DNA of 64,000 nucleotides. It comes from an uncultured Acidobacteriota bacterium. Lineage in GTDB: Bacteria; Acidobacteriota; Terriglobia; Terriglobales; Acidobacteriaceae. The DNA lies in contig CAVTLP010000012.1 of NCBI GenBank assembly GCA_963735555.1, forward strand, positions 90,504 to 154,503, in the 5' to 3' direction. Below, one piece after another: positions 1-22,569 of the stretch. The notes beneath the pieces are model-generated. The model had not been told where the DNA came from, ran no database searches, and was given only the letters and a program-made list of their open reading frames with translations. How positions within the stretch are numbered: position 1 is the stretch's first letter; every line of letters begins with the position of its first letter. A program made the translations under genes and the position numbers.

Positions 1-1200
1 GCCCACGAATGCCTCCCCGGAAGGCAGCGGATAGGTAGCCGCCATCTGCGGAGGCGTAGGGTTCTCCTGGCAGGAGCGCAGAATCCCGGGATCGGGCGTG
101 TCGACCGGGCCGGTTTGCAGAGGAGTGCCTGTCACCCTGCCCAGTTGCGGCTTGCTTCGGTCCAAAGCGAGCACGCCGCCATCCGGAAGGGCTGCCAGAC
201 GCCAGAAAGTGAACCCCGGAACCGCGAGCGTGAAGTCCGGCCAGCGGTCGCGCCGGTCTACCAGCACCAGGTCTCCGCCCGACCGCAACATAAAGGATGC
301 CGTCAAAGCCCATGACCAGGTCCGTAACCGCCTGTCCGGCCGGAGCTGCATAGATCGGCACTTCGCCAGGACCGCTTCCGCCCGCCATGACCTGAAGGCT
401 GATCGGGTCCCAGCGGGCATAATTGCCGAACGCGTCGCGCGCCATGGGCGCCGTCTCAACCAGATTGCTCGCAGCCGTGAAGGATTCCAGAGGCGGATTG
501 CCCAGCCGCATGCTCAGCAACTGCAGGCGATTCGTGATCGGGCAATAGTACAAAGTGTTGGAGGCGATGGGTGCGAATACCGGCTCACCGGCGGTGTACG
601 CGGCCGGCGTACTGCCCAAAACGCTGCGGGTCACAGTAAGGATCATTCCCGTCGGAGTCGACCTGTGTGACGATCAAATCCTCTGCGCCGATCTGCAAAA
701 AGACGCCTGCTGCTAGACCCGTTGCCGGGACCGGTGGTGGAAGTGCGGGCGTGGTTGTGGGGCTCGGTGTGGTCGTCGCTCCCGGCGGGGTAGTTCCCGG
801 AGCAGTCGTAGCCGGGGGATGTATGCGCCGCGACAATCGTGAGTTGCGTATCGGTGACGGCGGCGTCGGCTCGCAGAATCCCCACCGGTCCCAGGACCAG
901 CGCACCCGGTGGATGGTTCGTCGCCGTGGTGCCCCGTGCACCGCGTATCACTCCCAGCTGCAAGCCGGTCGCGTCGATTCCACTGACGCTCATCACCTCC
1001 GAATCGACCGAGATGAATTCCGGGGCGCCGCCGGGCAGCGCCACAAGCAGCACGATCTGCGTGTCGTCGACGCCCACATTCTGCGCCAGCGAGGACATAT
1101 TCGGAGCCGCGGCGGACGAGCCGGGAACCGCGGGCGGCGGCGGCACAGACCAATCCTGCTGCTTGCTCAGCATCCAGAATTTGAGGCCGTTGGCATCCAT
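1..1200 (-). CDS. eCIS phage-tail/baseplate-wedge-associated protein, N-terminal part (truncated by window edge; frameshifted)
   Basis: Starts MDANGLKFWMLSKQQDW just downstream of baseplate J. Continues across indels as ...LYYCPITNRLQLLSMRLG...MARDAFGNYARWDP...VTDLVMGFDGILYVAV. Function inferred from position in the eCIS operon. Confidence 0.6.
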
Positions 1201-1211
1201 GTCGAGTTCGC

Positions 1212-3421
1212 TCAGCACACGTTCGGGACAATCGGCACCGCAACCGAGTTGTCTGTTTGCACATCGGGGGTCAGGTTGCCCGGAGTGACGCCCGAGCCGT
1301 CGGTTCCCGGTGTCACCAATACCTGCAGCAGTTCCGGCAACTGCCAGCTTTCGAGCGTGAGTTCCGCATTGCCGCTGACCATCGGAAGTTTGTGGTAGCC
1401 TCCTCCGCTGAGGGGCGTGAAAAGCAGCAGGCCGTTGACCTCCACGACACCGGCCACCTGGCTGACGATCACTTCGAGCTCAAGGCTGCGCACAGTGCGG
1501 CCGAGAGGCCAGCCCTGGTTGCTGGCGCCGCCCGGGGGAACCGGCCACAGGTAAGTTCGCAAGGCCTGTTCCACCTGCTGGCTCACCTGCAGCAGGCCGA
1601 ACCCGCTGCGTACCTCCACCGCCACGCTCACCCCGACGCCGATATATTCGGTCCCGATCACGTACATTTCTGCCGCCACGGGGCGCTTTGGATTGAGATA
1701 GGCGTACACATTCTCAAGCAGAGGCCGCCCGGCGCGCGGACAAGGCGGCTGGAGATCGCTCTTGGGTGGAATCACCATGACCGAAACCACGCCTGGAACA
1801 TTCGTATCGCGCGTCTGAGGCTTGAAAAGTGGCAGAACCTCCACGCGCGCCACTCCTCCGCCGGGCATCTCCTGCACCAGGTTCTTGTAATCGTCCGCAG
1901 TCACCGCGCGTTCCTGGTGCCGGAGCGTGGCGGGAATGCGCTGCTCGGCCTGATCCAGCGTTTCGGAGTCCGTGCCCCCCGTAGTGTCAATGGGCTGCTG
2001 CACGGTAAGGCTTTGCGCCGGATTGCCGTGATGTCATTCGCCTGGATGGCGGTGAGCGTGCCGGCCGGCAGATTTCCCGCTGCCCCGCCGCCCGCGCGCA
2101 TCAACCGTGCCCGCATCCGGCGGCCGATCGGCGGGATCATGCCCTGCATCTGATTGCCGAAACTCACCGTGCCGGCTTCAGGGTCGAGCGTATAAGCTGG
2201 GCAGCGGCCCTTGCAGCACCGCAAGATCGTCCACAGACGTCCAGAGCTGGAAGCCGAGTCCCGGCATGTCCACGTCGAGTTGAAAGGTCGACGGATCGAT
2301 CTGGGTTTGCGACAGCGCGAATTGCTGATTGGCGGAGCCGTCGCTCACTCCGGCGATCACGTTGTTGATAGGTGGTGCGCTGGTCGATCTCGACCGCGTT
2401 GATCCCAGCCCAACTCAGCGTCAGCGCGCTCTGCACGTTGACGCGGATCCAGGCCACCAGCATGCTGTCGATATCGGGATCGTCGATGCGCGGCGGTTTC
2501 GGACCCACGCCCGCCTGCGTATCGCTGCGCACGTCGTTGGCGGGCGCGCCGATATCCGGACTTGCGGCAGCATCAGCTGCACGACGCCGGCCGTGGTCAG
2601 ACCCCTGCGTGGTATCGCTCGCGACGCTCAGCGGGTAATAGACGAGCGGCTTTCCCGCGGCCGTTGCTTCCGCTGATTTGCCAGGTCACCGGAATCGCCG
2701 CCTCGCGGTCCGAAATCGGCGAACGGGATCGGTGGCCGCCGAAGCCGGCGCAAAGCCAAGACTCAGGATGCGCTGTCCATTCTTTCCGCCCAGCGTGGCG
2801 CGAATCGCGCTCAGGTTGGCGGGTTTGCCGGCCAGCAAGCGCGATCCAGATGCACTGGTCGATGGTCCCGCCGTAGACATCCACGCCGTTCGGATCGGCC
2901 ATGTTAGTTGGCGAAGACCGGAGTCGTGGTATAGCCCGAGGGCAGGTTGGACATGCTGTAGAGGGACTGCAATCCCTGCAGCAACGGCATCGCGGCGTGT
3001 CTGCTGCGCCTGGGTGAGCGGAACTTTGATGTAAGCCTGCGCCGTCACCGGCAGCACGTCGAGTTCGGAGAGCGTTTCGAAGCCGGCGGACCGGGAATGG
3101 AAGCGCCCGAAGCCAGCGTCACCGCGGTGGTGACGGCGGGATCCGAGAAATATCGAGAGAATCCCGGTCGCCGCGGCCGCGGCTGGATGCAATGGCAGGC
3201 CGAGCAGCTTCAGGAACGCCAGCCGTCTGCCGTTCCGGAATCAGGTTGGCGCGGTACAGAATCGAATCGGCAAGCCAGGCGAAAAGCTCGATCAGCGTGC
3301 GGCCCGGATCGCCAGTCTGCTGAATGGTCCATTCCGGCGTATGCGCCGGAATGCTGTCCAGCATATCCTGCACCAGGTCGCTGTAGGAGCGGTCGTCAAG
3401 AGCTGGTGGTATCAGAGGCAC
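1212..3421 (-). CDS. eCIS baseplate J-like assembly protein (Afp11/Pvc11-like; frameshifted)
   Basis: N-terminus MPLIPPALDDRSYSDLV..IPAHTPEWT..GDPGRTLIELFAWL. Middle has YTLDPEAGTVSFGN..GMIPP. C-terminus GGTDSETLDQAEQRIPATLRHQERAVTADDY and GWPLGR. These are typical baseplate-J motifs. Confidence 0.9.
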
Positions 3422-3425
3422 AGTT

Positions 3426-3818
3426 CTATCCGCCTTGCATCGTCACGCCGATTTGCTGCACCGCGTTGGTGCGCAGCAAACGGTAGAAAATCTGAACGTG
3501 GATTTGTGAAGGAGCGCCGTCCACCGTTTCCACTTCCACGTTGTCTACGGCGATCCTCGTTTCATACGTCTGCAAGGCTGTTCACGATCGCCGTTTGAAT
3601 TTGCCGCCGGATCGCGACCGTATTGCCTTCGTCCAGGAAGTTTTGCAGCCCGGCGCCGAACAACGGCTGCATCAGTTGCTCGCCAGGGCGCGTGGTCAGG
3701 ATGATGCGGATCGAATCGCGCACGCTCTGCTCCAGCGTGGTCGTAACTCAACTGCCCGTTTTGCGGAACCGGCAAGAACGGCCAGGAAATCGGATCTTTG
3801 TAAGTTGCTCGCGGCCAT
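3426..3818 (-). CDS. GPW/gp25 family baseplate protein (frameshifted)
   Basis: Stitched translation EQSVRDSIRIILTTRPGEQLMQPLFGAGLQNFLDE...YETRIAVDNVEV..IFYRLLRTN matches the gp25 signature. TAATG overlap with the upstream gene. Confidence 0.9.
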
Positions 3819-5451
3819 TAGTCCTCTGTCGGCGCAGCGCTCGGCTGCCGGTATCGGAAACGGAATGCAGATCTTGATAAAGGCCATCCAGAAAAAAACA
3901 ATGTTCAGCAGCGAAAGAAAAATGTTCAACACAAAGAAGGCGCAGATGGTGATAAGCGGAATGCTGAAGCCGCAGATCCAGGTCAGGTTGATGCCGCCTC
4001 CGCCCGGAGGCAGGCGCTCCCGTTCGACAATCCCGTCAGGCTCGCGTTCTGCATCGCGTTCATCAAGGCTCGGCGGCACGGCGAATGACGACGTCTGCTT
4101 GGCGCTCTTCAACACGTTCTTGTCGAACGGATCGGGCAGCGGCACCGGCGCCGCCGCCCGGCCGCCGCTCTCGTACCAGGCGGCAATCCGGAATGGATCG
4201 CTGTAGCAACTCCAGACCAACTCAGGCGGACAGGCCGGCGCTTTCGCCCTTGATGCGGAAAAACAGCCGCACGCGATAGAGCCGCGAGGCGTCCTGAAAA
4301 CGCCCTTGCGGAGGAAACGCCGCCAGGCTGCGCGATTGCAGCAAAGGCCCCATCACGTCCGAGGATGTCGTTCTGGTCTTGCGTCGCTGAAGGAATCCCA
4401 CGCGTGCGGCATTTGAGAGATGGGGCGCCGACGGAGGCATTGGCGCGTTGGGATCGTAATCGATCAGCTTGGCGGCCGCCTCCTGGTAGAACGCGCCCAT
4501 GGGCTTGCTGCACGTGAATCCGGAGCCGTCTTTGGATCGTCACGTTGTGCCGGTTCAGAATGTTCAGCAGCGTTTGCGCGCCCGGCGATCCGTCGAATGC
4601 GCCGAATACCGTATAGAGCAGGCGCAGGGTCGCGGAGAAAGTCGCGAAGTCGGGAGCGCTTTTCGACTTCGCGTAGTCGTCGGACATGTACTTGTATGTC
4701 ACCGACTTGTCCGCCGCGGGAGCGTTGTGGCTGCCGGCCTTCAGCAGCGTCGGCAGAATCTTGAGCATCGTGTCGTTATCGACCCGCGGCACCGAGGGCG
4801 CCTGCTGCGTGCTGGCCTCGCTGCTGGCCGTGGGAATCAGCGCATAGACCAGCGTGCGGCCGGCGGCGTTGCAGACATCCGGCGCCGCGACAAACGCCGG
4901 CGTCGAGACTTCCGTCAATGCGATCGACAGAGCTCTGCGCCGCCAGCAACTGGTCGAGCGCCGGCTGCCCCGATTGAAGCTGCGGCCGCTGCACCGGGTC
5001 GGGATCGTCGTCCGGCGTCCAGGAGGCGGCGCTCTTCATCCATCCGAATTGCCCATTCGCGTCCTTCATCCACGGCCACGCCGTTCTGGCGCTTCCGAAA
5101 GTTCGCTGACGCCTCCCGTGCGCGGCACGCGCCGGATCACCAGCCCCGCCGATAGCACGCGCTTCGGGTCCAGCCTCGGATAGCCCACGCTCTCGCAGGC
5201 CAACTGCACCATGGCGACATGAACGACGCGCGCCACAGGTTGGTAGAGAGTGCCTGGGACCGAAGGGCCGGCAGTCACGATCTGGGCGCTCGAGAGCGGC
5301 GTTCCCTTTGCCCCGGGGTCCCCATAGCGCCCAAGTCGCGCAGGAACGCATTGGGGAAATCTTCCCGGTTCATCTGCAGCACCACCGGCTTGTTCAGCGG
5401 CGGCCCGCCGGTGAGCTGCACGCCGCTCACGACGATGTCGTGCCTTACCAT
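3818..5451 (-). CDS. eCIS hypothetical protein with hydrophobic C-terminal segment (frameshifted, about 540 aa)
   Basis: Stitched from ORFs 5275-5682, 5066-5278, 4109-4918, 4222-4500 and 3696-4220: MVRHDIV..LQMNREDFPNAFLRDL..LYQPVARVVHVAMV..GRFQDASRLYRVRLF..WICGFSIPLITICAFFVLNIFLSLLNIVFFWMAFIKICIPFP. Overlaps both neighbours. Confidence 0.75.
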
Positions 5452-6149
5452 ACGTTGCCGGCTCCCGGCGTGTAGACGGCCGAATCCACCGTGGTCGCGA
5501 TCAACGTCTGGCATTGGACGATGCCGCTGAAAGTGCTCATCGCGGCGTTCACCGTGACCGATGGGCGCGGTGACCGTGACTCGGCTCGCCGCGGTAATCT
5601 GCACCTGACCCGTAGGCGCGTTGATGGTGACGCCGCTCGAATCGATCCTGTACCGATGTATTTTCCGTATTGCTGAATTCAATCGAGCCGTCCTCGTCGG
5701 TGAGCGTTCCGGTGAGTCCGCCCGGCGTCGAAAACGTGATGGTGGCGCTGCTGGCGGGTTGTTCCACGATCGCGATACGCGTCCCGGCCTTGCCGGTGAT
5801 GGTCCAGCGGTCGACGCTCTGTCCCGAACCGCCGATCGTTTCCGGCGCCGAATCCTGGCCGTTCCAAAGGCTGCCGATTACGATAGCCGCGCGCGGATCG
5901 CCGCCCAGGAACGCCACCGCCACTTCGTCGCCTACGTCCGGAATGAAAAACGCGCCGCGATTGCCGCCCGCGAACGGCACCGCCACGCGCGCCCAAATGG
6001 GTCCATCCTGGTCCGTAACCCCGTCCGCGTTGTAGAGGCGCACCTGCACCCGGTTGCGGTTCTCCGGATCCTTGACGTTCACCACCGTGGCGAGGAACAG
6101 CGCCGGCCCCAACAACTGGTGAGCGCGTTTCGTGCAGCAACAGGCTCAT
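5445..6149 (-). CDS. Phage baseplate assembly protein V / Gp5 OB-fold spike (VgrG C-terminal-like; frameshifted)
   Basis: LATVVNVKDPENRNRVQV..WARVAVPFAGGNRGAFFIPDVGDEVAVAFLGGDPRAAIVIGSLWNG is the Gp5 OB-fold motif. It is followed by short beta-repeats and ends YTPGAGNVW*. Confidence 0.92.
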
Positions 6150-7242
6150 GAACCCGCCCCCAGGTAAGCGCACTCCGCGGTGAATTCCGTCGCATACCCT
6201 TTCTCAGTGTCGAAACGATGGACCGTCGCAGTCGTGTAGTAGGTGTTGGAAAATCTCGGGCCCAAACCCGTCAGCGTCAGGTATGTGCCCACGCGCAGCG
6301 CGGGGTTGCCTTCCGCCACGCCGCGCGCCACCACAAACTGGCGGCTCCGCTGCGCGAACTCGGCGTCGACCAGCGCCTGCGCGTCCGATTGATTCAGCGT
6401 GGCGTATTGCGCCAGTTGCTCCGATCGCGAAGCTCAAGGCCTGCGGCAGCCAATCCTTGCGCCGGTCTGCCCCGATCCCGGACCAAGCGAGGTGGTCTGG
6501 CTGGTCACCGAAATGGTTTGTCCCTGGTTGTAATCCCAGCCGGTGGCCGTAACTTGCGTCACCTGGTGCGCCAGATCGGCGAGAACGCGGACTTCGTGAA
6601 GCTGGCTGTTCATGTCCAGTTGAATCGCATTCCGCTGCGCCTGGCTCCTCGGCGTGGCGTGCAGTTCCGTCGCCGACCACCTGCAGATCGGCGTCGTAGC
6701 GCGCCAGCAGCCGGCGCAGGAAATGGAGATCGCTTTCGTTGAGCTGCTGTTCGGAACCGATGTGTCGCATCCAGTCCGCTGCGTCACCGGCGTCAGGCCC
6801 AGCCCGCTCGCAATCTGTCTGCACGATGTCCGAAAGCGAAGTGTTGTCCCAGTTCTTCGTGCGCCGCTTCATGCGCGCCGCCTGCAGCGCATCTTCTGCG
6901 AGCACCACCAACTCCGGAGGCCCGTCGCTGGGAAAGACGGCTTCAAGCGCCGTGATCTTGCCGCGGAAAATCTCGGTAGGCGAAGTGACCAGGCCCGCAT
7001 AGACCGTCAGGGCCGCGCCCAGCTTCAAGATCGTTCCGTCTTCGAATACCTGGTCGCCCAGCCCTCCGGCGAAGGAGCCGAAATTGCTGAAACGCAGCTC
7101 CAGATTCGACATCCCGCCTTCGTGCTCGCACATTTTCATGCCGAGCAACTGCGCGGTGACCTTGTCGTTCAACTGACCATCCACCTGTACCGTGGGGATG
7201 GCGCTGTATACGGCGGAAGTCGTGATTGGGGTCTGCAGGCAT
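6146..7242 (-). CDS. Phage late control D (GpD / gp27-like hub, VgrG N-terminal-like; frameshifted)
   Basis: EIFRGKITALE..ELVVLAEDALQAARMKRRTKNW..QLNESDLHFLRRLLARYD..QVTATGWD..ARGVAEGNPALRVG..LGPRFSNTYY..HRFD..GYATEF. Confidence 0.9.
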
Positions 7243-7247
7243 AGGTC

Positions 7248-7403
7248 CTAATCCGCTCGCAATCGAAGCTCGCGCTCGCGCAGCTTATCCAACTCTGCCT
7301 TGACGTCGAGCTTCGGCTGTTGCGCAGCGCCGGCCGCCGGCGCGTTTGGGGGCGCGGCAGAGGGCTGTGTTTCTACCTCTAAGTCGTCGATAGTTACAGA
7401 CAT
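7248..7403 (-). CDS. Small eCIS-associated protein (about 50 aa; frameshifted; not in the ORF track)
   Basis: ATG at 7403 reads MSVTIDDLEVETQP... and, after an indel, ...KLDVKAELDKLRERELRLRAD*. It fills the gap between flanking eCIS genes. Confidence 0.6.
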   Translation of the reverse strand: MSVTIDDLEVETQPSAAPPNAPAAGAAQQPKLDVKAELDKLRERELRLRAD

Positions 7404-7420
7404 AGTTCGTTCTTCCGCGA

Positions 7421-8658
7421 TTAATCGATATCGAACGTCAGCCCGTCGTTAAAACTGAATGTGGCGCCCACATTCGTGGAAAAGCCCGGACGGCGCCATG
7501 GCGACTCCGCCCAGGCCGAAACTGGCGTTGGCGCCGGCTGCGACATCCGATCCCACGGTCGCCGGCAGCATGCGCAGCGGATCGAGCTGCGCCGTGGTGC
7601 TGAGAGTGGCGCGGCCGACTTCGAGGCCCGCGAAGGCTCCCGCCGTCGCGGCACGCCCGCCGACGCTGGACGATCCGAACAGCGCCCCGCCCCCTGCCGC
7701 CAGCTGAAACCTGACCGCTGGCGCTGGTCGAAACACGCCCACTCCCACGGACGCGCCCGCGCCCGCCGAGAATCCAGCCCCGGCCGATATTCCCACGCCG
7801 GCCGATGCGCTTGCGCCGAAGCCGGCGCTGGCCGAGACGCCCAACTCCCGCGCCCGCCGAGAGACCCACCCCCGGCGCCCCGGATATCCCGATTCCCGCA
7901 CCGCGCTGGAAATGCCAAGTCCCGCGCCCGCCGAAGCGCTGGCGACAAAACCCACGGCGGCGTTCAACTGGATTCCGCCGCCCACTTCCAGGGCCGCTCC
8001 GCCCGTGAAGCGTGGATTCTCCAGCCCGTTGGCGCTGGCGAGCGCGCGCGTCGGCGTTGGGATCGCCGCCATGTGGCTCGCGGCGGCCGTCCGCCGCGCT
8101 TCCCGTCAGCCGGCGTCGGCACCAGGCTGCCGCGTCTGCGGACTTCGAATCCGGGAGCCCGCATCGAACACGTTGTCCTGCCGCGCCAGTCCGATGCTCA
8201 CCAGCGCGCGCAGCGGAATTCCATCGGCCGAGAAGAAATCGATCGTCTCCTTGAACGATTCCATGACCCCCTGGAAGTGATACACGCCCCAATCGAAACT
8301 GAGCACCGGAGGCGCCGGCGCGTTAGTCCCTTTGCTTTTGCGCCGCTGCCCGCCGTTGCTCGCCGCGGCCGGACGATTGCATGAAGAGCGCAATCGGCGT
8401 CGTAAACTGTCCGCACATCCGACCCCCGTGTCGGTAGTGTCGAATTGCAGATCCATGGTCAGCTTGCCCGTGAATTGCGCGGCAAATTGGCGTCGCCTCG
8501 GATCGCCCGCCCTGCTGTGGATTCGAATTCTCAACCGTGTAAACCAGAGAAGCCGGATTGAAATGCACGGGCATCGGCGTTCGCCGTTGGGCAGCGCCTT
8601 CAAGCGTCGCTTTGACGACTGTTGGAGCGGCTTGGTTATTGGAGTTGGGCTGGCTCAT
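7421..8658 (-). CDS. Contractile injection system tube-initiator protein (CIS_tube/Afp7-like) with Gly/Ala/Ser-repeat tail (frameshifted)
   Basis: PVHFNPASLVYTVEN..KLTMDLQFDTTDTG..APPVLSFDWGVYHFQGVMESFKETIDFFSADGIPLRALVSI, then LysM-like ARALASANGLENPR, then (GAGxGxSA)n. Confidence 0.85.
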
Positions 8659-8669
8659 CGAAATCTCTC

Positions 8670-9142
8670 TTAGACCGCGGAAAGGCCTTCGTGAACGAAG
8701 TGCAGTTCCTCGATGCCGACCTCCGTTCCCTTGGCGTTCAGATCCGCGAATTTGAACTTCACCGGCATCGCGTGAGCAAGCTGCCAGGCCATTACGGATT
8801 TCATTTTTCCGTCGAGCAGAGTGATGGTTACCTGCAGACGCGGCGCAAACTGTCCGCAACTGGTCTGCGTTGAAGATCTGCCACATGCTGCGATCCGTAC
8901 TCACGCCTCGCTTCAACACGACGGTGGCGAAGGTGACGCCGCCCGGCCGTTGCGCCGCGCCGTAATTGCGGCCGCCCTCCTTAATGACCTTGGGCTCCAT
9001 GGTGGCTTCGAGCCCGGTGCATTCCGCAAAGACCATCTCCGTGCGGTCGCCTTGCGGGCCGTTCGTCAGCGAATCGGCCGTGACGGCCACCCGAAATCGA
9101 AAAATGTGAAGCGGAACAATGCTGGGTATCTTTGGTCGCCAT
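8670..9142 (-). CDS. Phage tail tube protein, T4 gp19-like (tube 2; frameshifted)
   Basis: FAECTGLEATMEPKVIKEGGRNYG..VTFATVVLKRGV..AWQLAHAMPVKFKFADLNAKGTEVGIEELHFVHEGL. TGATG coupling to sheath 2. Confidence 0.9.
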
Positions 9143-10744
9143 CAGCTTGCCTCCGCCATGACTGCGATGCCCTGCGCGCTGGCTCCGCTGGTCTCGAGCG
9201 CCAGCGTGACGCGGATCAATTCGATGGTGGCCGCCGCGGTAAACGTCACCTGCGCGATGAGACGGCCGTTATCCAGGTCGTTTTGCGTCATGGTGCTGGC
9301 ATCGCAGCGCACCGAGAACGCCTCCTGAACGCGTGTCGCCATCGAGCGCATTCAGCGTCCAAAGCTGCGTGAGCAAATTGGCCCAGCGAGATTTCCACGG
9401 TTTGCCAGAGCGCCGGACCGTTCTGCTTGAAGACGATTCGTTCGCCCAACTGCCGCGAGCTCGCGAAATCACCGACACCAGCCGATGGACCCGCGCCGGC
9501 CGGTACGCTTCGCCGGGATAGGCGGTCACATCGGAGAGCAGCCGCAAGCCCGCGGGCGTGAATCCGAAAAGGCTCAGCCGAGTGATCAGCGGCTTCCACG
9601 AATTGCCACCCCAGACCAGCGGCGCCACCGGCACCGGAAGCTCCTGCGCAGGTAAAGACGGCCACAGATCGGAAATCTCGGCGGGAACGATCTTTGTGGC
9701 ATCCATGAAAGCGCCGCGCGTCAGCGCGTTGCGCGCCAGTAGCCCCACCAGCGCGCCGTCCGGCGGTTCCAGCGATTCGTTCAGGACGTGCGAGCCGGTC
9801 GTCGTCAGCCAGGGATAAGCGAGTTGCAGGAACGCGGTCGATAGACCCGGATCGGCGCGGCTGCGTGTCGACGCCGGGCGAATGTTCTCCGGCATCTGCT
9901 GGTGATGACGCTGTGGACATCCTGGGCAAGCACCGCGCTCGATGGATTTTGCGCGGCAGCGGCGGCGTCCAGATCCTGCGGCAAGCGGAAAAGCCGCCAC
10001 GAACTGAATCTCGCGGATGCCATTCTTCAGACAGGTACTCGAAGAACTGTCTGCACGCTCGGCGCCCATACGGTTCGCGTAATCGTCCGGCGTGAGCCGC
10101 GGGGCGGGTAGAGGGAATAGCGGAATGGGGGCGAGGATCGGTAGACGGCGGCGCACACTCCGCAAACCGCGAGGACCGGCGGCGACCGCCGAGACCACCG
10201 CCGCGGCGACTGTGGGCGCGGAAGCCGACAGCGCCGGAAGATCTGGCAGAGCGAGGAACGAGACGTCCGGCAGCCCGCCCAGATGCCCCGCGCCGTGCCA
10301 GCTTCGTCGATCGTCCACGGCGTATAGATTGCCCGGCAACAGCCTAGCCAGCTTTTGCGCCTTGCCGCTGCGCGCCATCTCGTTCGGTGAAATCGGATCG
10401 TCCATCCGCACGATGTAGCATCGTCTTCCGCCCTGAGCGAAGAACGAACGGACCGCCGCCGGCCAGATAGTCCGTGCCGTAACTCGCAAGGCGACCCGCC
10501 CGGGTCGAAGAGCGACGTAAATGTCGCATAGCTTTCGATCGGTATGGGAATATCGGTGAAGGGCGGATCAATGGAACGCGCCAGCGGCCCGTTTGTCCAG
10601 CCACGAACCTGCAGCCAGTTCTGGATCGCCAGGGGCAGAGCTGTGCCCGGTGACGCGAGCCAGTCCCACAAAGCAGGCGACATCGTTGCGCGCCGGGTCG
10701 GATTCGACCACCGGACGCGCTGAGTCAAATACGATGCGGCTCAT
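9142..10744 (-). CDS. Divergent phage tail sheath-like protein (sheath 2; frameshifted)
   Basis: RNDVACFVG..AVRSFFAQGGRRCYIVR..AYPWL..EPPDGALVGLLARNAL..GERIVFKQNGPALW..EAFSVRCDASTMTQNDLDNGRLIAQVTF, matching the sheath C-terminal domain. Confidence 0.8.
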
Positions 10745-10784
10745 GGCTCACTCTCTCGAAGACTCTCCATTTCCCGCTTCACGC

Positions 10785-11247
10785 TCAGGAAGCGAGACTG
10801 ATCTCGTACCCTTCGGCGGACAGCACCAGCTCTTCCATGGCGACCTCGCCGCCGCCTTTGCCCGCCAGCGTGGGGCCGGTATACTTCATGGGCACCACCT
10901 TGCGCAGCTTCCATTGCTGAATCGGAGTTGCCCGCCTCGTCGAGCAGCGTGATCACCACGTCGCGCTGCGCGGCAACGCCGGTCTTGCGGGTGGCCGTGA
11001 TCCAGGCCCACAAGTCCGACGAATTCACGACGCCGCGTTTCAGCGTGACGTCGCCCACTTTGTGCGACCCGGGAATCTTGCGCACATGCGGCTCGGCTTC
11101 GTTGCCGTCGCGGTATTCGGAGATGTGTATGTCGGTCTCCAGCCCCGAAACGTCCGAAAAGCCGCCCAGCGGTTTGATGCGGAGCCTCGCGGTCCACTCA
11201 GATCGACGATGATAGTTATAAGCCGGTAAAGGCGCGGTTCTGGGCAT
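10785..11247 (-). CDS. Phage tail tube protein, T4 gp19-like (tube 1; frameshifted)
   Basis: GGFSDVSGLETDIHISEYRDGNE..VRKIPGSHKVGDVTLKRGVV..LWAWI..RDVVITLLDEAG..KYTGPTL..EVAMEELVL. Confidence 0.95.
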
Positions 11248-11277
11248 TTCGATTCTCCTAGTCGGACTGGTTGCGGA

Positions 11278-13562
11278 CTAACTTTGCGCCAGAGCGGTCG
11301 TCTGGCCGATGCGGAAGATCACGAACTCGGCCGGCTTCAACACCGCCACGCCGATCAGACAGATCATGCGGCCATTGTCGAGATCGTTCTGCGTCATCGT
11401 GGTGCGGTCGCAGCGGACGAAATAAGCCTGGGACGGCGCTGTCTCCGAGTAAGTTGCCTTCGCGCGAATTCGTTATAGAGGAACGAGTCGATCGGCTTCC
11501 TTCACCCGGGACCACAGTGCCGGGCCGTTATTCTCGAACACTGCCCATTGCGTGCTGTTATCGATGGAGTGTTCGAGATAGATCATGTACCGGCGCACGT
11601 TGACGTACATGAACTCGGGATCGGAACTGGCCGTCCGTGCACCCCAGACGCGGAATCCTCGATACGGGAAGTAGCGCAGGCAGTTGATCCCCAGCGGATT
11701 CAGAACGCCCTGCTCGGCGAAGTTGATATCCCGCTCCAGCCGCGAGGCGCCCAGCAGGACTTCGTTGGCCGGAGCCTTGGAAACGCCGTTCTGCTCGTCG
11801 TTGCGCGCGTAGATGCCGGCGATGAAGCCGGTGGGCGGAACGGCGATCTCCGCTGCGATCGCCGAACCAGCGGTCGCCAGCGGATTGGGCGTAATCACCC
11901 ACGGCACATAGAGAGCCGCATAGCTGCTGTCGATCGCGGCGCGCACGCCTTCGTTATCGGACGCGAGTTGGTTCGGAGGCGTTTCCAGCATCGCGATGCG
12001 ATAGGCTCGCTGCTGGCTGACATGGGTAATCAGGCTGTTGATGATGTCCTGGCTGGAATTGACGAAGATGCCCGACCCCGGCGCGCCCACGATGGCGATA
12101 TCTTCGAGGGAAGTGAAAAGGGCAAGCGCGGCATCGTAGTTCGACGATTCCGGCGTCCAGGCCGTCGTCGCCGCCGCTCAGCGTGTAGGTCTGGACAGCA
12201 TTCGCGCTGGGTCCGGCCCAATTGGGGAAGATGATCGGAAGGAGGCTGGTGGAGCTGGTCAGATTTTGTCCGATGGTAAAGGCAATCTGATTTTGCAGCG
12301 CGTCGATGTGCCGTGGCGGAGTAGCTGCCAGCACCGTGCCGAGATAGTAGGGATGCGCCAGCTCGAAGCCCAATCCATCGAAGACCGCCGGCGATCCGGC
12401 CGCCGTCGCTGGCCGTCACCTGCATGGTCAGCACGTAGAGCCCCGGAGGAGTGACGGCGAGGCAGCGGCGTTGTGCCGCTCTGAAAGGAACCGGTCGTGC
12501 CGTTGGTGTAGAACGGATGGACGAAAACACTGGCGCGTTTGCATTGTGCGTTGCCCCGCTGCTGGCGCGGCGCAACGGTCACCACCGTGCCCGTCGAGTC
12601 GACCTGGGTTACGGCGAAGAATCTCTCCATCGATCTGGAGAAATCCCGGAACGCCGTTGGGCGGCTTGACCGCCGGGGGCCGCCGGAGCCGCAGTAGTCG
12701 TCGGAGCCACCGTGGTGGTCGTCGGACCGGCTGTCGTGGTCGTTGGCCCCCCCGTAGTCGTCGGAGCCGGCGTGGTGGTGGGCGGTGGAGTCACTGAAAT
12801 CGTCAATTGCGTCGCCGTGGCGTTGAGGCTAGAGAACAGCAACCCCACCGGTCCAAGGACCGCAGTCCCAGCCGCGTGCGCAGCGGGCGACCCGCCTCGA
12901 GTCACTGTCAGGTTCGTGCCGGTCGCGTCGACGCCGTGTCACTGTCATCGTTTCGGTGTCGATCAACACACTCGCAGGAGCGCCCCAGGGCAGTGGCGCG
13001 ATTCAGCGTGATGCTTCGTGTCGGACGATTGGACGGCGCGTTCGCCAGAGACGACGTGTTCGCCGCCGATGCCACCAGCGAGCCCGGCGGCAGGCTGCTC
13101 AGATTCTGCGTCCGCGTAGCCTTCAGCTTGACGGTGACGTTCTGATTCCCGCCGTTGACCGGCGAATTTCCGCTCATGCCGGGAAAGCGGGCCGATACGA
13201 CTACGTTCGAAGAGGAAGGAACGCCGCTGGTCGCGATGCCCGTGTCACTGCCGGGAGCGAAGACGCGCGAGACGTAGAGCTGCGAGCCTCCGTTATCGAA
13301 GAATGCCTTCACAGCCAGGGCCATGTAGTTAGTGTTCTTCGGGTCGGTTGTATCGCTATTGTTATTCAGCGTGAAAATTGTCATAACCGCCGTAGACATT
13401 CTGATAATCTCCAAAGCTGGTCAGCAGCTCCGGCGTCGTGTTGGTGGGCCCGGTTAAGGTTACGCCGGCGAAACCGGCAGTGCTGGTCCCAACGCCTTCA
13501 ATCGAAGGCGCCCGGAAACTGACTTCCTCTACGTAAACGCCTGGCGTTAAATATTCGGGCAT
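11278..13562 (-). CDS. Phage tail sheath protein (main sheath) with internal inserted module (frameshifted)
   Basis: MPEYLTPGVYVEEVSFRAPSIEGVGTSTAGFAG..AVKAFFDNGG..AALYVPW..VPPTGFIAGIYARND..KAPANE..LNPLGINCLR..RVWGART..YVNVRR..WAVFENN..PAEFVIFRIGQ. Confidence 0.95.
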
Positions 13563-13573
13563 TTTTCCTCCTA

Positions 13574-14477
13574 TCACATAGAAATCGTTAGTGCGACGAA
13601 AACCGTCTGGCCGGGACCAAGCTGCACCGGCTGCGACGCGCTCTTCCACGTCGGGCTTGGGCTTGCCAGCTGCAACAGAATGTCGTCCGGATTGGAAACC
13701 CATCCTTTTGGCTGGCCGAGAGTAGCAGGATCGAACACCGCGGTCACGGTTGCCGGAGTCGTAGCTTCCGTCACGGCGCCGGTGCTGCTGGAGCTTAGCT
13801 TCAATCCCAGTCCGGGCACCGCCAGCAATGCTTCGCCGTTCTCGTTGGTGAGCCCGGTCGCAGTCGGGTTGCCGCTGCTCGCCACCTGGATCACCGCCCA
13901 CGGCAAGGGCGCCGGCGGCGTGGCGTTGCTCACCACCGATACGCGGATCACAGCCCAGTTGGGCGCGACCGGCACAGCCGGCGTGGGATAGAGGACCACG
14001 CTTTGCGGCGTGGTCACGGGCGGAATGTCGCTGGCGGCGTGGGGCCCGGCGCAGAGGTGGTCGTCGTAGCGACCGGCGCACCCGTAGTCGTGGTTGGAGC
14101 GCCCGTGGTTGTCGTTGTCGGCGGGGCGTGGTGGTAGTGGTCGCGACTGTGCCCGGCGGGATCGGTGCCGGCAGCGGCTGCGGCGCTGCGATCGTCGCCC
14201 GCCGCGACAGATACCGCAAAGTCGGATCCTGAATCGTGATTTCGAACGTCGAAGGCGGTGGCCACGCACTGGGCGCTGTCGGTGCCAGAAACTGCGTCGT
14301 CAGTGCGTTAAGCGTCGGCGCGCCCTTCACATCCAACACCGCGAAGATCCCGCTGCTGTTGCGCCGAAGCACCAATGGCCCCGCCGTGACGGAGAGCGCC
14401 GACTCGATCGAACCGCTCGTGATGGCGTCCACGCAGCGGAATCCGGCCAGAACGCGGCGATCGACATTTTCGATCAT
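13574..14477 (-). CDS. eCIS accessory protein, carboxypeptidase-regulatory/Ig-like domains with Thr/Pro linker (frameshifted)
   Basis: MIENVDRRVLAGFRCVDAIT..RRNSSGIF..ITIQDPTLRYLSRR..(T/P-rich)..VVLYPTPAVPVAPNWAVIRVSV..GLTNENGEALLAVPGL. Lies between Pvc16 and the sheath. Confidence 0.65.
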
Positions 14478-15066
14478 TGCGCGACTCCCTTTTCGGAGAA
14501 CTGGAATCGGGTCGCCACCACCAGCGGCTCAGGCGTGGTGCCGATATCGATGCGCACTACGCGGGCGATGTAGGACACGCTCAAACGGTATTTCGGGCCC
14601 AGGGCGTCCCATATTCTCAGGATGTCTTCCAGGCTCAGATCCGCCGGCACCAGTTGAATGCTTTCCGTCGGGTCCCAGATGCTGCTCGGAGAGAGAATCG
14701 AATTGTCTAGGATGGGCACCAGACTGCAGCTGCGACATGGTCCAGCCCAGAATGGTCTGCTCGGCTTGAGGATCGGTGCCCCAGTAGGTGATCAGGTAGT
14801 GAAGATCCAGAAACAGTACCGGCGTCTTGTTGGGCTGGTTCTGGATGTGTGTGGCGGATCGGAAGTTTTCATTGATCGTGATGCGATGCAGGAAGATTGT
14901 GACCTTCTGGTCGAGGTTCGTCGTGTCCTCTTCGGCGATCTGCGAGCTGGATACCAGTTGAAACTTGACGCTGGGAAACTGGGTTTTCAGCTCGGGCGGA
15001 AAGCTGTTCCCCAGGAAACTGCGCCAGCGAGTTGCCCACCGAGTATATGGCCGTGTAATCAGCCAA
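14474..15066 (-). CDS. Pvc16/Afp16 (DUF4255) cap/terminator protein (frameshifted)
   Basis: TTG start after GAGGAGG. MADYTAIYSVGNSL..VTIFLHRITINENFR..LDLHYLITYW..EQTILGWTMSQL..LSLEDILRIWDALGPKYRLSVSYIARVV is the eCIS hallmark. Confidence 0.9.
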
Positions 15067-15180
15067 TCTGATCCTCCTCGTGGAGCACGCCCCAAATCCA
15101 TTTGACCCATTGCGCCTTCACGAACACCCTCGGGACATGACAAGGCGACCGGCACAGTCACGTCTCCGCGTGTCTGTATT

Positions 15181-15196
15181 AGCAATCTCCTTTCCA
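15181..15196 (-). promoter_or_regulatory. Possible sigma54 (-24/-12) promoter of the eCIS operon
   Basis: Minus strand reads TGGAAAGGAGATTGCT, a GG-N10-GC spacing with TTGCT, about 115 nt upstream of the Pvc16 start. The -24 element is imperfect. Confidence 0.3.
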
Positions 15197-15566
15197 AAAC
15201 GAACTAGCCAGTGAGCGCACCAAATCCCAAGCACTTGGCAATCGGAGCCGCTTTCGAAGTGCGGCGTTTCCACCGCAGGGCGAACCCGCTCGCACCCGTC
15301 CATGCGGAAATTTGGGTATCTACCAGGCTGAATCCCAAAGGCTTCGCGCGCTGCGACAAATTCGCCGCACCCCGGACTCGCGCCTTCCCGGTTCGGTACA
15401 CACTATGGCGGTTAGTCGAAGCGATTCATGCTAAGGCAGGGCTGGGCAGACGCTGCTTCAAAGGCGCATCAATCGTTGCCGGGTCAATCGGTTCAGCTGG
15501 CGCGCGGGGAGAATCCCGACGCCTCCATTGCCGCACAATATTGGGCGCAGGCGGCGATGACAACGG

Positions 15567-16443: not shown

Positions 16444-17790
16444 CTACTCCTTCAGACTAAGGACCGCGGATCCGGCCACCCCAGCCGCCACTGACGCAAG
16501 TAAGATGCCTATCTTCGCGACTTCGCGCAAATCGCCATCGCTGATAGATAGCGTCGCGATAAACAGCGACATGGTGAAACCGATCCCGCACAAACAGCCG
16601 GCTCCCGCCATCTGCCTCCAGGTCACGCCTTCCGGAGCGGACGCCAGCGACGACTTGACCGACAACCAGCCAAACAGAAATATGCCGATCGGCTTACCAA
16701 AGAAGAGTCCCAGAAATATCCCGATCGTGATCGGTTGAATCAGAGACATGCCTTGTCCACCCGAAATATGCACGCCCGCATTCGCCAGTGCAAACACCGG
16801 CATGATCCCAAATGTTACCCATGGTTGCAGCGCATGTTCGATCCTGTGCAAAGGTGATTGTACGAGCGCGCATTGACGTGCGAGGCCATAGATCAGGTTC
16901 CCCGGTTCACTCGAAGACGCCGCCGACTCCGAACGCGCCAGTGCTCGCAGCCTGTCCCAGATCGGCAGATTGTGTCTGAGGAACTCAACCGGGTTCACAA
17001 TTGTTTTGGCAGGAATCGTAAACGCCAGAAGAATTCCAGCCACCGTTGCGTGGACCCCCGATCGCAGCATGGCGAGCCAGACGAAGATTCCGATGATCGC
17101 GTACACCCCCCACGAGCGGACTCCCAGGCGGTTTGCAAGGAATGAGATTGCGACTCCGGCGAGCCCTGCTATCAGGCTGAAAAGTGAGAAGGCAGTCGTA
17201 TAAAAGAGGGCGATGATCAAAACCGCGATAATGTCATCCACGATTGCCAGCGCGGTTACAAATACTTTCAGCGTGATCGGAATGCGTTTGCCCAGTAACG
17301 CCAATGCCCCAAGAACAAACGCGATGTCGGTTGCGACTGGAATACCCCATCCGGGCCGTGCGGATGTGTGGTGCGTGACCGCGATGAAGATCACAGCCGG
17401 AAAGATCGCACCCCCCACAGCCGAAGCCAGTGGAAAGGCGGCCCGCTTGAGCGTCGATAGTTCGCCCGCCAGCAGTTCATGTTTGATCTCCAGTCCCACA
17501 AAGAAAAAGAAGACCGCCATCAATCCATCGTTGATGAAATGCTGCAGGCTTTCATTCAGTGCTGCCGGACCCACTCCGATGGTCAGATACAGATGCCAGA
17601 AGTGGCCATACGAATCCGCCCACGGCGAATTTGCCCACAGCAGCGCCGCGACTGTGCTGGACAACAACACCAGTCCGCCCGCTGCTTCGAGTTTCGCGAA
17701 TCGGACGAACGGAGAAATGATGCGCTGGATAGGCGTGCCGGACGCCGCCGGCGGGAGTTGCAGTGACTCAGAGAAATCGTCCGCGTGCAT
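16444..17790 (-). CDS. nhaA: Na+/H+ antiporter NhaA
   Basis: FINDGLMAVFFFFVGLEIKHE, GWGIPVATDIAF, LAIVDD, SGVHATVAG and GIGFTMSLFI motifs. Confidence 0.97.
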   Translation of the reverse strand: MHADDFSESLQLPPAASGTPIQRIISPFVRFAKLEAAGGLVLLSSTVAALLWANSPWADSYGHFWHLYLTIGVGPAALNESLQHFINDGLMAVFFFFVGLEIKHELLAGELSTLKRAAFPLASAVGGAIFPAVIFIAVTHHTSARPGWGIPVATDIAFVLGALALLGKRIPITLKVFVTALAIVDDIIAVLIIALFYTTAFSLFSLIAGLAGVAISFLANRLGVRSWGVYAIIGIFVWLAMLRSGVHATVAGILLAFTIPAKTIVNPVEFLRHNLPIWDRLRALARSESAASSSEPGNLIYGLARQCALVQSPLHRIEHALQPWVTFGIMPVFALANAGVHISGGQGMSLIQPITIGIFLGLFFGKPIGIFLFGWLSVKSSLASAPEGVTWRQMAGAGCLCGIGFTMSLFIATLSISDGDLREVAKIGILLASVAAGVAGSAVLSLKE

Positions 17791-18112
17791 TCAGCCCCCG
17801 GGGATAGTATTCAGTCCATCTTCGTTAGCGCGTTTCTGCGGTTAATAAGTCTTACCGGAGCGAACAGGCAAGGATCTCAATGTCAGACGCAACAATCCCG
17901 TGCGCCTGGTTAGGCGCCTCGCTGGCGACAGCAGAATACACCCGAAAATCGACCTCGCAAAGCTAGGAATTCTACTAGTACCAATCTTCTGCTTGCAGAA
18001 CTATAAAGATCGTCTAGACTCACAGTCGTGAGTTCTGGCCCTCTAATTCTTATTGGATTTATGGGGCGGGGGTATGTCGATGGGAAGAGATGCTGAGCCT
18101 CAAGGCGGTGAA

Positions 18113-19345: not shown

Positions 19346-19347
19346 CC

Positions 19348-22300: not shown

Positions 22301-22569
22301 CTATCCTGATGACTGCATTTGCCTTCATTCTTGGCTGCGTGCCGTTGTGGCGGGCATTCGGAGCCGGCGCGATTTCGCGCCAGGTGCTGGGAACGACGGT
22401 CATTGGGGGCATGCTCGCGTCCACCGTCATCGCGATTTTCTTTGTTCCGGTTTCCTTTGATGTCGTGGAGCGCTTCGGCAATCTATTCAGTAAAGAAAAG
22501 GAAAAGCCAAAACTGGAGCCGGAGCCGCCGCCTGCCCCCGACGGCTCGTCGAAAGGAGAGCACCCATGA
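19348..22569 (+). CDS. RND efflux permease, HAE1/AcrB family (frameshifted)
   Basis: MSKFFINRPIVAMVIAI, LAIGLVVDDAIVVVE, KNAILIVEFAK, RLRPILMTAFAFILG; several indels between 20.6 and 21.5 kb. Confidence 0.95.

What the first reader, a model, noticed from the sequence alone, without database searches (positions are those of the whole stretch)
570..13065. Same beta-domain / Thr-Pro stalk / beta-domain module inserted in both the eCIS sheath and the tail protein
Seen after correcting indels by eye. Sheath (about 13065-12520): NTSSLANAVQSSDTSITLNAPLPWGAPASVLIDTETMTVTGVDATGTNLTVTRGGSPAAHAAGTAVLGPVGLLFSSLNATATQLTI-[TPPPTTTPAPTTT..]-GFLQIDGEILAVTQVDSTGTVVTVAR..HNANAPVF. Tail protein (about 1105-570): NMSSLAQNVGVDDTQIVLLVALPGGAPEFISVDSEVMSVSGIDATGLQLGVIRGARGTTATNHPPGALVLGPVGILRADAAVTDTQLTI-[PATTAPGTTPPGATTT..]-VFLQIGAEDLIVTQVDSTGMILTVTR..YTAGEPVF. 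Each module is itself a tandem pair of an ID.E...V..VD.TG..L.V.R....H..G..V unit, with the Thr/Pro loop inside the second unit. Inference: a mobile decoration module was copied between two unrelated structural genes of one machine. It would be displayed in many copies along the sheath and at the baseplate, possibly for adhesion, bundling of particles into arrays, or shielding. I know of no described eCIS with this shared decoration.
Basis: partly seen in the sequence, partly recalled or inferred. Interest (0 to 1): 0.85.

Follow-up and report, generated by a model that had tools for sequence, protein, structure and literature searches.

The report
Shared barrel coat on injection machine
A bacterial protein-injecting nanomachine carries the same small two-barrel add-on in both its sheath gene and its baseplate gene, likely copied from one to the other long ago and predicted to point outward, where it likely helps the particle cling to surfaces; the barrel itself is common on phage parts, so this is a new variant rather than a new kind of system.

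Summary
With the Thr/Pro stretch removed, the sheath and wedge (Cis12/P2-gpI-like) modules share 64 of 126 residues (E 5.5e-31). The window's frameshifts look like assembly errors. The module is an insertion: relatives have empty sites (sheath 32 of 91 filled, wedge 15 of 65), and some loci carry it in a third gene, sheath 2. The Thr/Pro tract is an optional disordered loop inside barrel 2, not a stalk between domains. The unit is not a new fold: it is a 71-residue six-stranded beta-barrel matching parts of the JBD30 and Chi tail-tip proteins and the VP1 capsid (Z above 10). It is found in about 12,400 protein clusters, including pilins and tail fibres. T4-like cyanophages put the same barrel on their sheath, at a different site, and on other tail genes. 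The wedge pair most resembles the sheath pair of its own clade, in register, so an old intra-locus copy is likely. Function is untested: accessory adhesion is the best guess, bracing or shielding the rivals. Verdict: a new variant of known surface decoration; I found no paper on it in CIS.

The parts
11278..13562 (-). Sheath 1 gene of the CIS (broken by indels in this assembly)
   Evidence: Start motif at 13562; PF04984 and PF17482 on the 3' piece; intact homologues of 710-770 aa
12852..13060 (-). Sheath barrel unit 1
   Evidence: homologue model residues 162-228 at pLDDT 90-96
12525..12851 (-). Sheath barrel unit 2, containing the Thr/Pro loop
   Evidence: model strands before (231-247) and after (302-339) the loop
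12647..12797 (-). Thr/Pro loop of about 50 aa inside sheath barrel 2
   Evidence: pLDDT 43-60 in the homologue model; absent in outer-clade sheaths
1..1200 (-). 5' part of the baseplate wedge gene (Cis12 / P2 gpI-like); runs off the window to G000 C12:87551
   Evidence: Intact homologues carry PF09684 Tail_P2_I and match S. coelicolor CIS baseplate chain 9gtp_E; continuation
889..1101 (-). Wedge barrel unit 1 (unbroken; the folded query)
   Evidence: Model pLDDT 96.9, six strands; Z 10.4-10.7 to 8rk3, 9in6, 8vjh
575..888 (-). Wedge barrel unit 2, containing the Thr/Pro loop
705..834 (-). Thr/Pro loop of about 43 aa inside wedge barrel 2
   Evidence: short or absent in 9 of 15 wedge modules
9142..10744 (-). 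Sheath 2 gene: empty site here, but 11 of 90 testable relatives carry 1-2 barrels near its N-terminus
14026..14133 (-). Separate Thr/Pro tract in the gene upstream of the sheath (about 14477-13574), which has no barrel
14529..15197 (-). Pvc16-like cap gene (context)
   Evidence: PF14065
10741..11247 (-). Tube gene (context)
   Evidence: PF06841; TIGR02241
5549..7184 (-). Hub/spike gene pieces (context)
   Evidence: PF05954, PF04717
1212..2003 (-). 3' part of the baseplate J gene (context)
   Evidence: PF04865

Best explanation
A pair of small six-stranded beta-barrels of a common phage/pilus type is inserted in this CIS sheath and its baseplate wedge; it likely entered the sheath first, was likely copied within the locus long ago, is predicted to face outward, and likely acts as a many-copy, low-affinity adhesion coat. 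Shown: the insertion, the empty sites in relatives, the third carrier gene, the optional loop, the family's breadth and purifying selection. Predicted: the fold and the disorder of the loop. Inferred: the order of events, the outward position (from where the site falls in solved relatives) and the function. The Thr/Pro loop is likely a later, separate addition in one clade that would add flexible bristles. Odds: anatomy about 0.9, intra-locus copy about 0.7, adhesion as the main job about 0.45.
For: Insertion: filled sites 32 of 91 (sheath 1), 11 of 90 (sheath 2), 15 of 65 (wedge); in the 51 loci where all three sites could be read, all 16 with a wedge or sheath-2 barrel also had a sheath-1 barrel. 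Copy in register: wedge unit 1 averages 0.47 identity to same-clade sheath unit 1 against 0.32-0.33 to outside units, and wedge unit 2 averages 0.44 to sheath unit 2 against 0.31-0.35; wedge unit 1 falls in a starred 39-row group with same-clade sheath unit 1. Old event: own-locus and other-locus identities are equal, 0.452 and 0.454. Outward position: the insert lies between strands of the beta-rich middle region, which falls in the unaligned middle of the closest solved sheaths 8bky and 9ezm, whose domain 3 is described as on the surface or most variable (PMC10066040, PMC11566945); the gp7-like wedge part is lateral and a re-engineering hotspot in AlgoCIS (PMC8894135). Adhesion context: of 44 hit proteins scanned, 9 are pilin-like (Tad, PilX_N, N_methyl), 2 are S74-chaperoned fibres and 2 are RTX proteins. 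The same wedge site holds an unrelated Trp-rich repeat in a 19-locus sister clade, with weak CBM5/12 and head-decoration matches. One domain working on three different host proteins in 1-3 copies suits a position-independent job. Kept by selection: pooled dN/dS about 0.15 (sheath) and 0.21 (wedge).
Against: No binding was tested. The barrel has few exposed-type aromatics (0.5 Trp/Tyr per unit), unlike classical sugar-binding modules. The best solved match is described as stabilising the JBD30 baseplate (PMC11445458). An independent import into the wedge followed by local duplication is not rejected (AU p 0.089), and 4 of 15 wedge units of each kind have their best match in another class. Unrelated proteins reach 40-54% best identity to these units, so about 50% between the two genes is less special than it looks. 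No sign of faster-than-flank diversification: dN 0.18 against 0.12-0.13 in flanks. The sheath model is poor at its C-terminal domain and no lattice model was made. 21 of the 44 scanned hits had no Pfam family.
Confidence: 0.45

Rival explanations
1. The barrels are braces: they latch neighbouring sheath or wedge subunits and stabilise the particle, for instance against premature contraction.
For: [quoted passage not shown] The outer tube domain of YSD1 latches the ring (PMC7385642), and the homologous Mystique tube domain matches at Z 7.8, a middling score. Conserved residues are few and look structural: Glu35 in 152 of 152 units, Arg53, His63.
Against: A brace needs a matching partner surface, yet the same barrel sits on three unrelated sites in 0-3 copies and is missing from two loci nested inside the carrier clade. 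A 40-60-residue loop is tolerated in it.
Confidence: 0.22
2. Barrels plus Thr/Pro bristles form a shield that protects released particles from proteases, adsorption or freezing; the Thr/Pro tracts may be O-glycosylated.
For: 4 of the 7 Thr/Pro tracts in the 3.34-Mb assembly lie in four genes of this locus. All 16 inner-clade loci over 19 kb have a tract, against 4 of 59 others. The window's three tracts share no 12-mer, so they are not recent copies.
Against: Many carriers have barrels without loops. No glycosyltransferase was seen among 24 flanking ORFs scanned (other ORFs only listed). CIS are assembled in the cytoplasm (PMC10066040), away from the usual bacterial O-glycosylation machinery (recalled).
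Confidence: 0.17
3. The barrels bind each other and bundle particles into arrays.
For: The gp7-like wedge part mediates superstructures in related systems (PMC8894135); the same domain on sheath and baseplate would allow side-to-side contacts.
Against: Nothing here shows self-binding; the barrel also occurs singly on free phage virions.
Confidence: 0.08
4. The barrels are harmless passengers, tolerated on exposed loops and conserved only because misfolding would hurt assembly.
For: Patchy presence and variable copy number; dN/dS similar to flanking surface regions.
Against: About 140-200 extra residues on a many-copy protein is costly (argument made for sheaths in PMC9230969); retained across distant loci and gained separately in cyanophage sheaths.
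Confidence: 0.08

Closest known systems
Small six-stranded beta-barrels of phage virions: JBD30 baseplate hub gp53 (8rk3, 480-555), Chi tail tip (8vjh, 489-575), Vibrio phage VP1 capsid (9in6, 64-143), phage GP4 chain 8jov_1
   Same: Same fold over the whole unit (Z 10.7, 10.4, 10.5, 9.2; rmsd 1.4-1.8 A over 69-71 residues); profile matches E 7e-6, 3e-6 and 0.06 for the first three.
   Different: Those are in non-contractile tail tips, a capsid or a podophage tail; here a tandem pair sits in CIS sheath and wedge, with a Thr/Pro loop.
T4-like cyanophage sheaths with two barrels (S-WAM1, P-RSM6, P-TIM40; S-SZBM1 by full-length match)
   Same: Tandem barrels in the sheath, absent from close relatives such as P-RSM1, and more barrels in other tail genes: gp15 of P-RSM6 and baseplate-region genes.
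   Different: Different insertion site (before the conserved Arg/Phe-Pro-Gly motif, not after it), so likely a separate gain; no Thr/Pro loop; a phage, not a CIS.
Additional outer domains of tail sheaths and mobile Ig-like phage domains (PMC9230969)
   Same: Extra surface domains on sheaths, proposed to aid adhesion or stability and to move between structural proteins (passages).
   Different: Those are described as Ig-like sandwiches; the word 'barrel' does not occur in that paper's main text.
Streptomyces coelicolor CIS (8bky, 9gtp), Halogeometricum CIS (9ezm), AlgoCIS
   Same: Closest solved sheaths (E 2e-88, 5e-88) and wedge core; outer sheath domain and lateral wedge part are variable.
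   Different: The unit profile hit no CIS chain in the PDB; this locus has two sheath genes and a wedge of 930-1190 aa.
Pfam PF23666 Rcc01698_C (GTA megatron-like C-terminal domain)
   Same: A unit from a J-like tail protein (L002) matches both PF23666 and the barrel profile; structural match to 8gtc_M at Z 6.2.
   Different: None of the other 68 aligned units matches PF23666.

Membership tests
eCIS-type contractile injection system (Afp/PVC/CISSc-like) | Sheath, tube, hub/spike, baseplate J, gp7/gpI-like wedge and Pvc16 cap in one cluster | tested here: met
eCIS-type contractile injection system (Afp/PVC/CISSc-like) | AAA ATPase and Cis13-like fibre genes downstream | tested here: met
   G000 C12:74592-72610 is 76% identical to an AAA protein of a related locus; Cis13-like N-termini match NF053767 below its cut-off
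eCIS-type contractile injection system (Afp/PVC/CISSc-like) | No capsid, portal or terminase genes | tested here: inconclusive
   None among the ORFs scanned, but no dedicated search was run
eCIS-type contractile injection system (Afp/PVC/CISSc-like) | Particles released from the cell (extracellular mode of action) | not testable with these tools
   The closest solved sheaths belong to a cytoplasmic and a T6SS-like system, so the mode is open
JBD30 domain-VI / Chi / VP1 type six-stranded barrel | Six-stranded barrel superposing over the whole domain | tested here: met
   Model pLDDT 96.9; Z 10.4-10.7, rmsd 1.4-1.8 A, 69-71 aligned; TM 0.82-0.83 for 8rk3 and 9in6
JBD30 domain-VI / Chi / VP1 type six-stranded barrel | Detectable sequence homology with the Glu...Arg-Gly...His pattern | tested here: met
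   hmmsearch E 2.7e-6 (8vjh_A), 7.1e-6 (8rk3_o), 0.059 (9in6_M)
JBD30 domain-VI / Chi / VP1 type six-stranded barrel | Bracing contact with a neighbouring domain | not testable with these tools
   Needs a lattice model or cryo-EM
Bacterial/phage Ig-like decoration domains (Big, Cadherin, FN3) | Pfam Ig-like family above its gathering score | tested here: not met
   Only Cadherin_5 on 2 of 69 members, best E 0.014
Bacterial/phage Ig-like decoration domains (Big, Cadherin, FN3) | Ig beta-sandwich fold | tested here: inconclusive
   The best matches are barrels; a family missing from the list is not excluded
PF23666 Rcc01698_C | Score above the Pfam gathering threshold | tested here: not met
   1 of 69 members matches, and it is the non-CIS unit from L002
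Carbohydrate-binding module CBM5/12 | Pfam match and conserved surface Trp/Tyr | tested here: not met
   No PF02839 match for the barrel; 0.5 Trp/Tyr per unit, none conserved. The alternative Trp-rich wedge insert matches PF02839 only below cut-off
   32 of 91 testable sheath sites are filled

The most novel reading that the evidence does not exclude
One CIS lineage wears a full surface coat: an unnamed, highly mobile barrel family (an Ig-like equivalent for contractile machines, gained separately by cyanophage tails) spread over sheath 1, sheath 2 and wedge, plus Thr/Pro bristles on four proteins that are O-glycosylated, giving a mucin-like, adhesive or stealth coat not yet seen on any CIS.
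Probability: 0.12. Interest if true: 0.85.

Novelty: new variant of a known kind. Interest (0 to 1): 0.5.

Why it matters
It shows one lineage of injection machines shuffling surface domains among its own structural genes: barrels (sheath 1, sheath 2, wedge), Big_3 Ig repeats (wedge, fibre) and Thr/Pro tracts (four genes). CIS targeting is usually credited to tail fibres, so a sheath-wide adhesive coat would add a second route to target or surface binding. The natural insertions also mark sites in sheath and wedge that tolerate 140-320 extra residues, which matters for CIS engineering as delivery tools. The barrel family is large (about 12,400 clusters at 50% identity) and has no Pfam model of its own, so it is worth naming. 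The general idea of extra surface domains on sheaths is already in print, which limits the surprise.

Tried and rejected
Recent copying or gene conversion between the window's two genes: rejected; DNA matches are short (best 22 of 25 and 41 of 55 nt) and each window unit is closest to the same unit of other loci (70-76%). Thr/Pro as an integral stalk: rejected. A named family for the unit: none in Pfam, none in NCBIfam for the two-barrel query; the ESM Atlas gave unnamed, mostly viral clusters at 0.90-0.91 and weak leads to gp15 and head-fibre families at 0.86. phmmer of the single window piece against the PDB found nothing; only the profile did. Foldseek on the PDB gave no match at E 0.001 or better. 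tblastn of a two-barrel module against annotated phages gave no match, although the profile finds barrels there. A donor could not be named: hosts G201 and G203 carry the barrel in a J-like tail gene, but J-like units are no closer (0.32-0.35) than other outside units; monophyly of the 97 CIS units is not rejected (p 0.80), which does not prove it. The complex predictor was not available, so self-binding of the barrels is untested. No RNA holder was listed for the sheath region. Folding the full sheath against viral structures returned generic sheaths. Three look-ups of earlier scan findings returned nothing. A viral-contig scan with the unit alignment could not be run (too few conserved columns). 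PMC11945409 passages gave nothing on this domain.
Full report
Setting. The window is G000:C12:90504-154503 of a 58%-complete, indel-rich assembly. On the - strand it holds a contractile injection system cluster: Pvc16 cap, sheath 1, tube, sheath 2, hub/spike, baseplate J and a wedge gene that runs off the window. Beyond the window lie Cis13-like fibre genes and an AAA ATPase. The 'tail protein' of the finding is the gp7/P2-gpI-like wedge: intact homologues carry Tail_P2_I at the C-terminus and match chain 9gtp_E of the S. coelicolor CIS baseplate. The host is likely an acidobacterium: two genomes of its family share match coordinates with loci whose records are titled Acidobacteriaceae and Acidobacteriota.

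Observation. Confirmed. Unbroken pieces already match (E 1.5e-5 against the whole assembly; 25 of 48 identical). Read through with X at the breaks and with the Thr/Pro tracts removed, the two modules share 64 of 126 residues, E 5.5e-31, score 247 against a shuffle maximum of 71. The assembly holds the unit only at these two places. Contigs of near-identical strains differ from the window by 1-2-base indels at about ten places of the sheath gene (3 of 7 listed runs laid), so the breaks are likely assembly errors.

It is an insertion, and in three genes. I fetched 160 loci with the spike gene as bait (the best 80 of 115 in genomes, the best 80 of 224 in metagenomes). Sites that could be read on both sides were filled in 32 of 91 sheath-1 genes, 11 of 90 sheath-2 genes and 15 of 65 wedge genes; duplicates are included, and divergent wedges drop out because the N-terminal probe is short. 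Empty sheath-1 sites are mostly 7-34 residues long and many empty wedge sites have no spacer at all. In the 51 loci with all three sites the unit counts (sheath 1, sheath 2, wedge) were 000 in 24, 200 in 11, 212 in 7, 202 in 5, and one each of 220, 210, 203 and a broken 112. On a tree of 48 distinct loci, wedge barrels are confined to one 15-locus clade (SH-aLRT 100), in 13 of 15 members; sheath-1 barrels reach further (25 rows, 2 changes); sheath-2 barrels need 4 changes (root on one long branch). Record titles of carriers span Bryobacterales, Acidobacteriaceae, a delta- and a gammaproteobacterium and Eremiobacterota, and strong two-barrel matches occur in only 3 of 401 genomes of the host's order, 0 of 7 others of its genus. 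The locus therefore likely moves between hosts.

What the unit is. A model of the unbroken 71-residue wedge unit has six strands and pLDDT 96.9. It superposes on the JBD30 baseplate hub 480-555 (Z 10.7), the VP1 capsid 64-143 (10.5), the Chi tail tip 489-575 (10.4) and GP4 chain 8jov_1 (9.2), then more weakly on the Mystique tube outer domain (7.8), the K1 lyase (7.1) and lambda gpJ (7.0). The first three were also found by sequence profile. The JBD30 paper calls a small six-stranded barrel in this protein 'domain VI' and says it stabilises the baseplate (PMC11445458, section 14 part 1 read). The profile finds 12,413 clusters at E 0.001 or better, 1,028 at 1e-10, with up to 35 copies per protein; I saw only the best 150, and 55 outside units that I aligned all keep the Glu and Arg. 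Of 44 hits chosen by moderate length, 9 are pilin-like, 2 are S74-chaperoned fibres, 2 are RTX proteins and 21 have no Pfam family. 59 of 69 units match PHROG 1101, a tail protein. No Pfam family covers the CIS units; PF23666 touches one outside unit.

The Thr/Pro tract. In a model of the intact L013 sheath, residues 161-250 and 291-350 have pLDDT 89-96 and residues 251-290 have 43-60; the first two strands of unit 2 precede the tract and the rest follow it. Loop-less homologues have a short turn there. So it is a loop in barrel 2. It is absent from 11 outer-clade sheath modules, short or absent in 9 of 15 wedge modules and from 5 of 18 wedge proteins found by search. Similar tracts occur in genes without barrels: 4 of the 7 tracts in the whole assembly lie in four genes of this locus, and all 16 inner-clade loci over 19 kb have one against 4 of 59 others. 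The window's tracts share no 12-mer. They look like a second, clade-specific surface trait that I cannot explain.

History. Wedge unit 1 is closest to sheath unit 1 of its own clade (mean 0.47 against 0.32-0.33 for outside units) and wedge unit 2 to sheath unit 2 (0.44 against 0.31-0.35); the best match falls in that class for 11 of 15 units each. In-register identity exceeds cross-register in 12 of 12 loci, by only 0.01 in two, and these loci are kin. Own-locus and other-locus identities are the same (0.452, 0.454), so this was one old event, not ongoing conversion. Against this: holding all wedge units as one clade is not rejected (AU p 0.089), the unit tree has only 71 columns, and unrelated proteins reach 40-54% best identity. 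The barrels are under purifying selection, pooled dN/dS 0.176/1.17 in 8 sheath pairs and 0.181/0.844 in 5 wedge pairs, against 0.038/0.878 and 0.067/0.784 for the cores (dS is near saturation in some pairs).

Position. The sheath insert lies inside the beta-rich middle region, between the two stretches that align to the closest solved sheaths. In those, domain 3 is on the sheath surface and flexible (PMC10066040, passages) or the most variable part (PMC11566945, passages; surface epitope in PMC12998442, passages). In AlgoCIS extra sheath domains extend outward and the gp7-like wedge part is lateral and a hotspot of re-engineering (PMC8894135, passages). The wedge site is indeed a display slot: a 19-locus sister clade has an unrelated Trp-rich repeat of 102-307 residues there, and the window's wedge has four Big_3 Ig-like repeats at a second site that also occur 11 times in its fibre gene. 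Outward display is inferred, not modelled.

A parallel in phages. S-WAM1, P-RSM6 and P-TIM40 have two barrels in the gp18 sheath; P-RSM1 has none there but three elsewhere. P-RSM6 also has barrels in gp15 and in baseplate-region genes, P-TIM40 in baseplate-region genes (the weakest of these hits have E 2e-4 to 3e-3). The phage site precedes the conserved motif that the CIS site follows, so the gains are likely separate.

How it likely works. I favour a many-copy, low-affinity adhesion coat (0.45), because the domain works on unrelated host proteins in variable number, shares its slot with other adhesion-like repeats, and recurs in pilins and fibres. Bracing (0.22) has the only precedent from a solved structure. 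Shielding (0.17) fits the Thr/Pro loops. Bundling and neutrality get 0.08 each. Few Trp/Tyr residues argue against a classical lectin. None of this was tested by experiment.

Novelty. Extra outer sheath domains, and their proposed roles in adhesion or stability, are in print (PMC9230969, passages), as is the exchange of Ig-like domains among phage proteins (quoted there; original paper recalled, not read). A survey of eCIS fibre domains does not discuss sheath or wedge inserts in the parts I read (bioRxiv 10.1101/2025.05.13.653841, part 1 of 6 and passages; its supplements were not seen and may list this fold). Ten full-text searches listed no paper on this barrel in a CIS or on CIS of these acidobacteria; none of the 25 papers listed contains 'Bryobacter'. 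The library lacks most subscription papers, and the structure papers on VP1, Chi and GP4 did not come up. PMC12013898 and PMC7385642 were read as passages. Verdict: a real, correctly spotted feature; a new variant of known surface decoration; interest 0.5.

Noticed in passing
L031:14975-15319, L036:14974-15894 and about 25 further loci: An unrelated Trp-rich repeat (102-320 aa) fills the same wedge site in a sister clade, mostly Terracidiphilus; weak CBM5/12 similarity, PHROG 20658 'head decoration' E 6e-8, no solved relative.
   Followed up: partly
G000 C12:90158-88970 and 85204-82154 (just outside the window): Big_3_5 Ig-like repeats are shared between the wedge (4 copies) and a Cis13-like fibre gene (11 copies) of the same locus; a related fibre has 16.
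   Followed up: partly
window 14026-14133; G000 C12:80470-80381: Thr/Pro tracts in two barrel-less genes of the locus (upstream of the sheath; a fibre-like gene).
   Followed up: partly
L172:2111-9809, L173:1518-9257: Two hosts carry a separate non-contractile tail cluster (DUF2460 x2, Phage-tail_3 J-like gene with one barrel, TIM-barrel NCTSP); many similar 1,290-1,310-aa proteins appear in the search.
   Followed up: partly
L051, L063, L065, L075 sheath 1 (and L063, L075 sheath 2): More distant CIS have a different 225-236-aa insert at the same sheath site, in two loci also a shorter related-looking insert in sheath 2: a second possible case of shared decoration.
   Followed up: no
L176:12008-17448; L177:15242-18999; L180, L181: DUF4157 (eCIS_core) genes flank the related loci; one is followed by a PoNi immunity gene, which suggests a PoNe-type nuclease cargo and bacterial targets.
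   Followed up: no
L079 sheath 2 site: A 256-aa insert of about seven degenerate repeats with a Trp-Leu core.
   Followed up: no
P0219, P0221: Phage head-tail adaptor-like proteins of about 355 aa appear to carry one barrel nested inside another.
   Followed up: no
window 16444-23969: NhaA antiporter and an RND efflux operon lie upstream of the CIS cluster; ordinary host genes.
   Followed up: no
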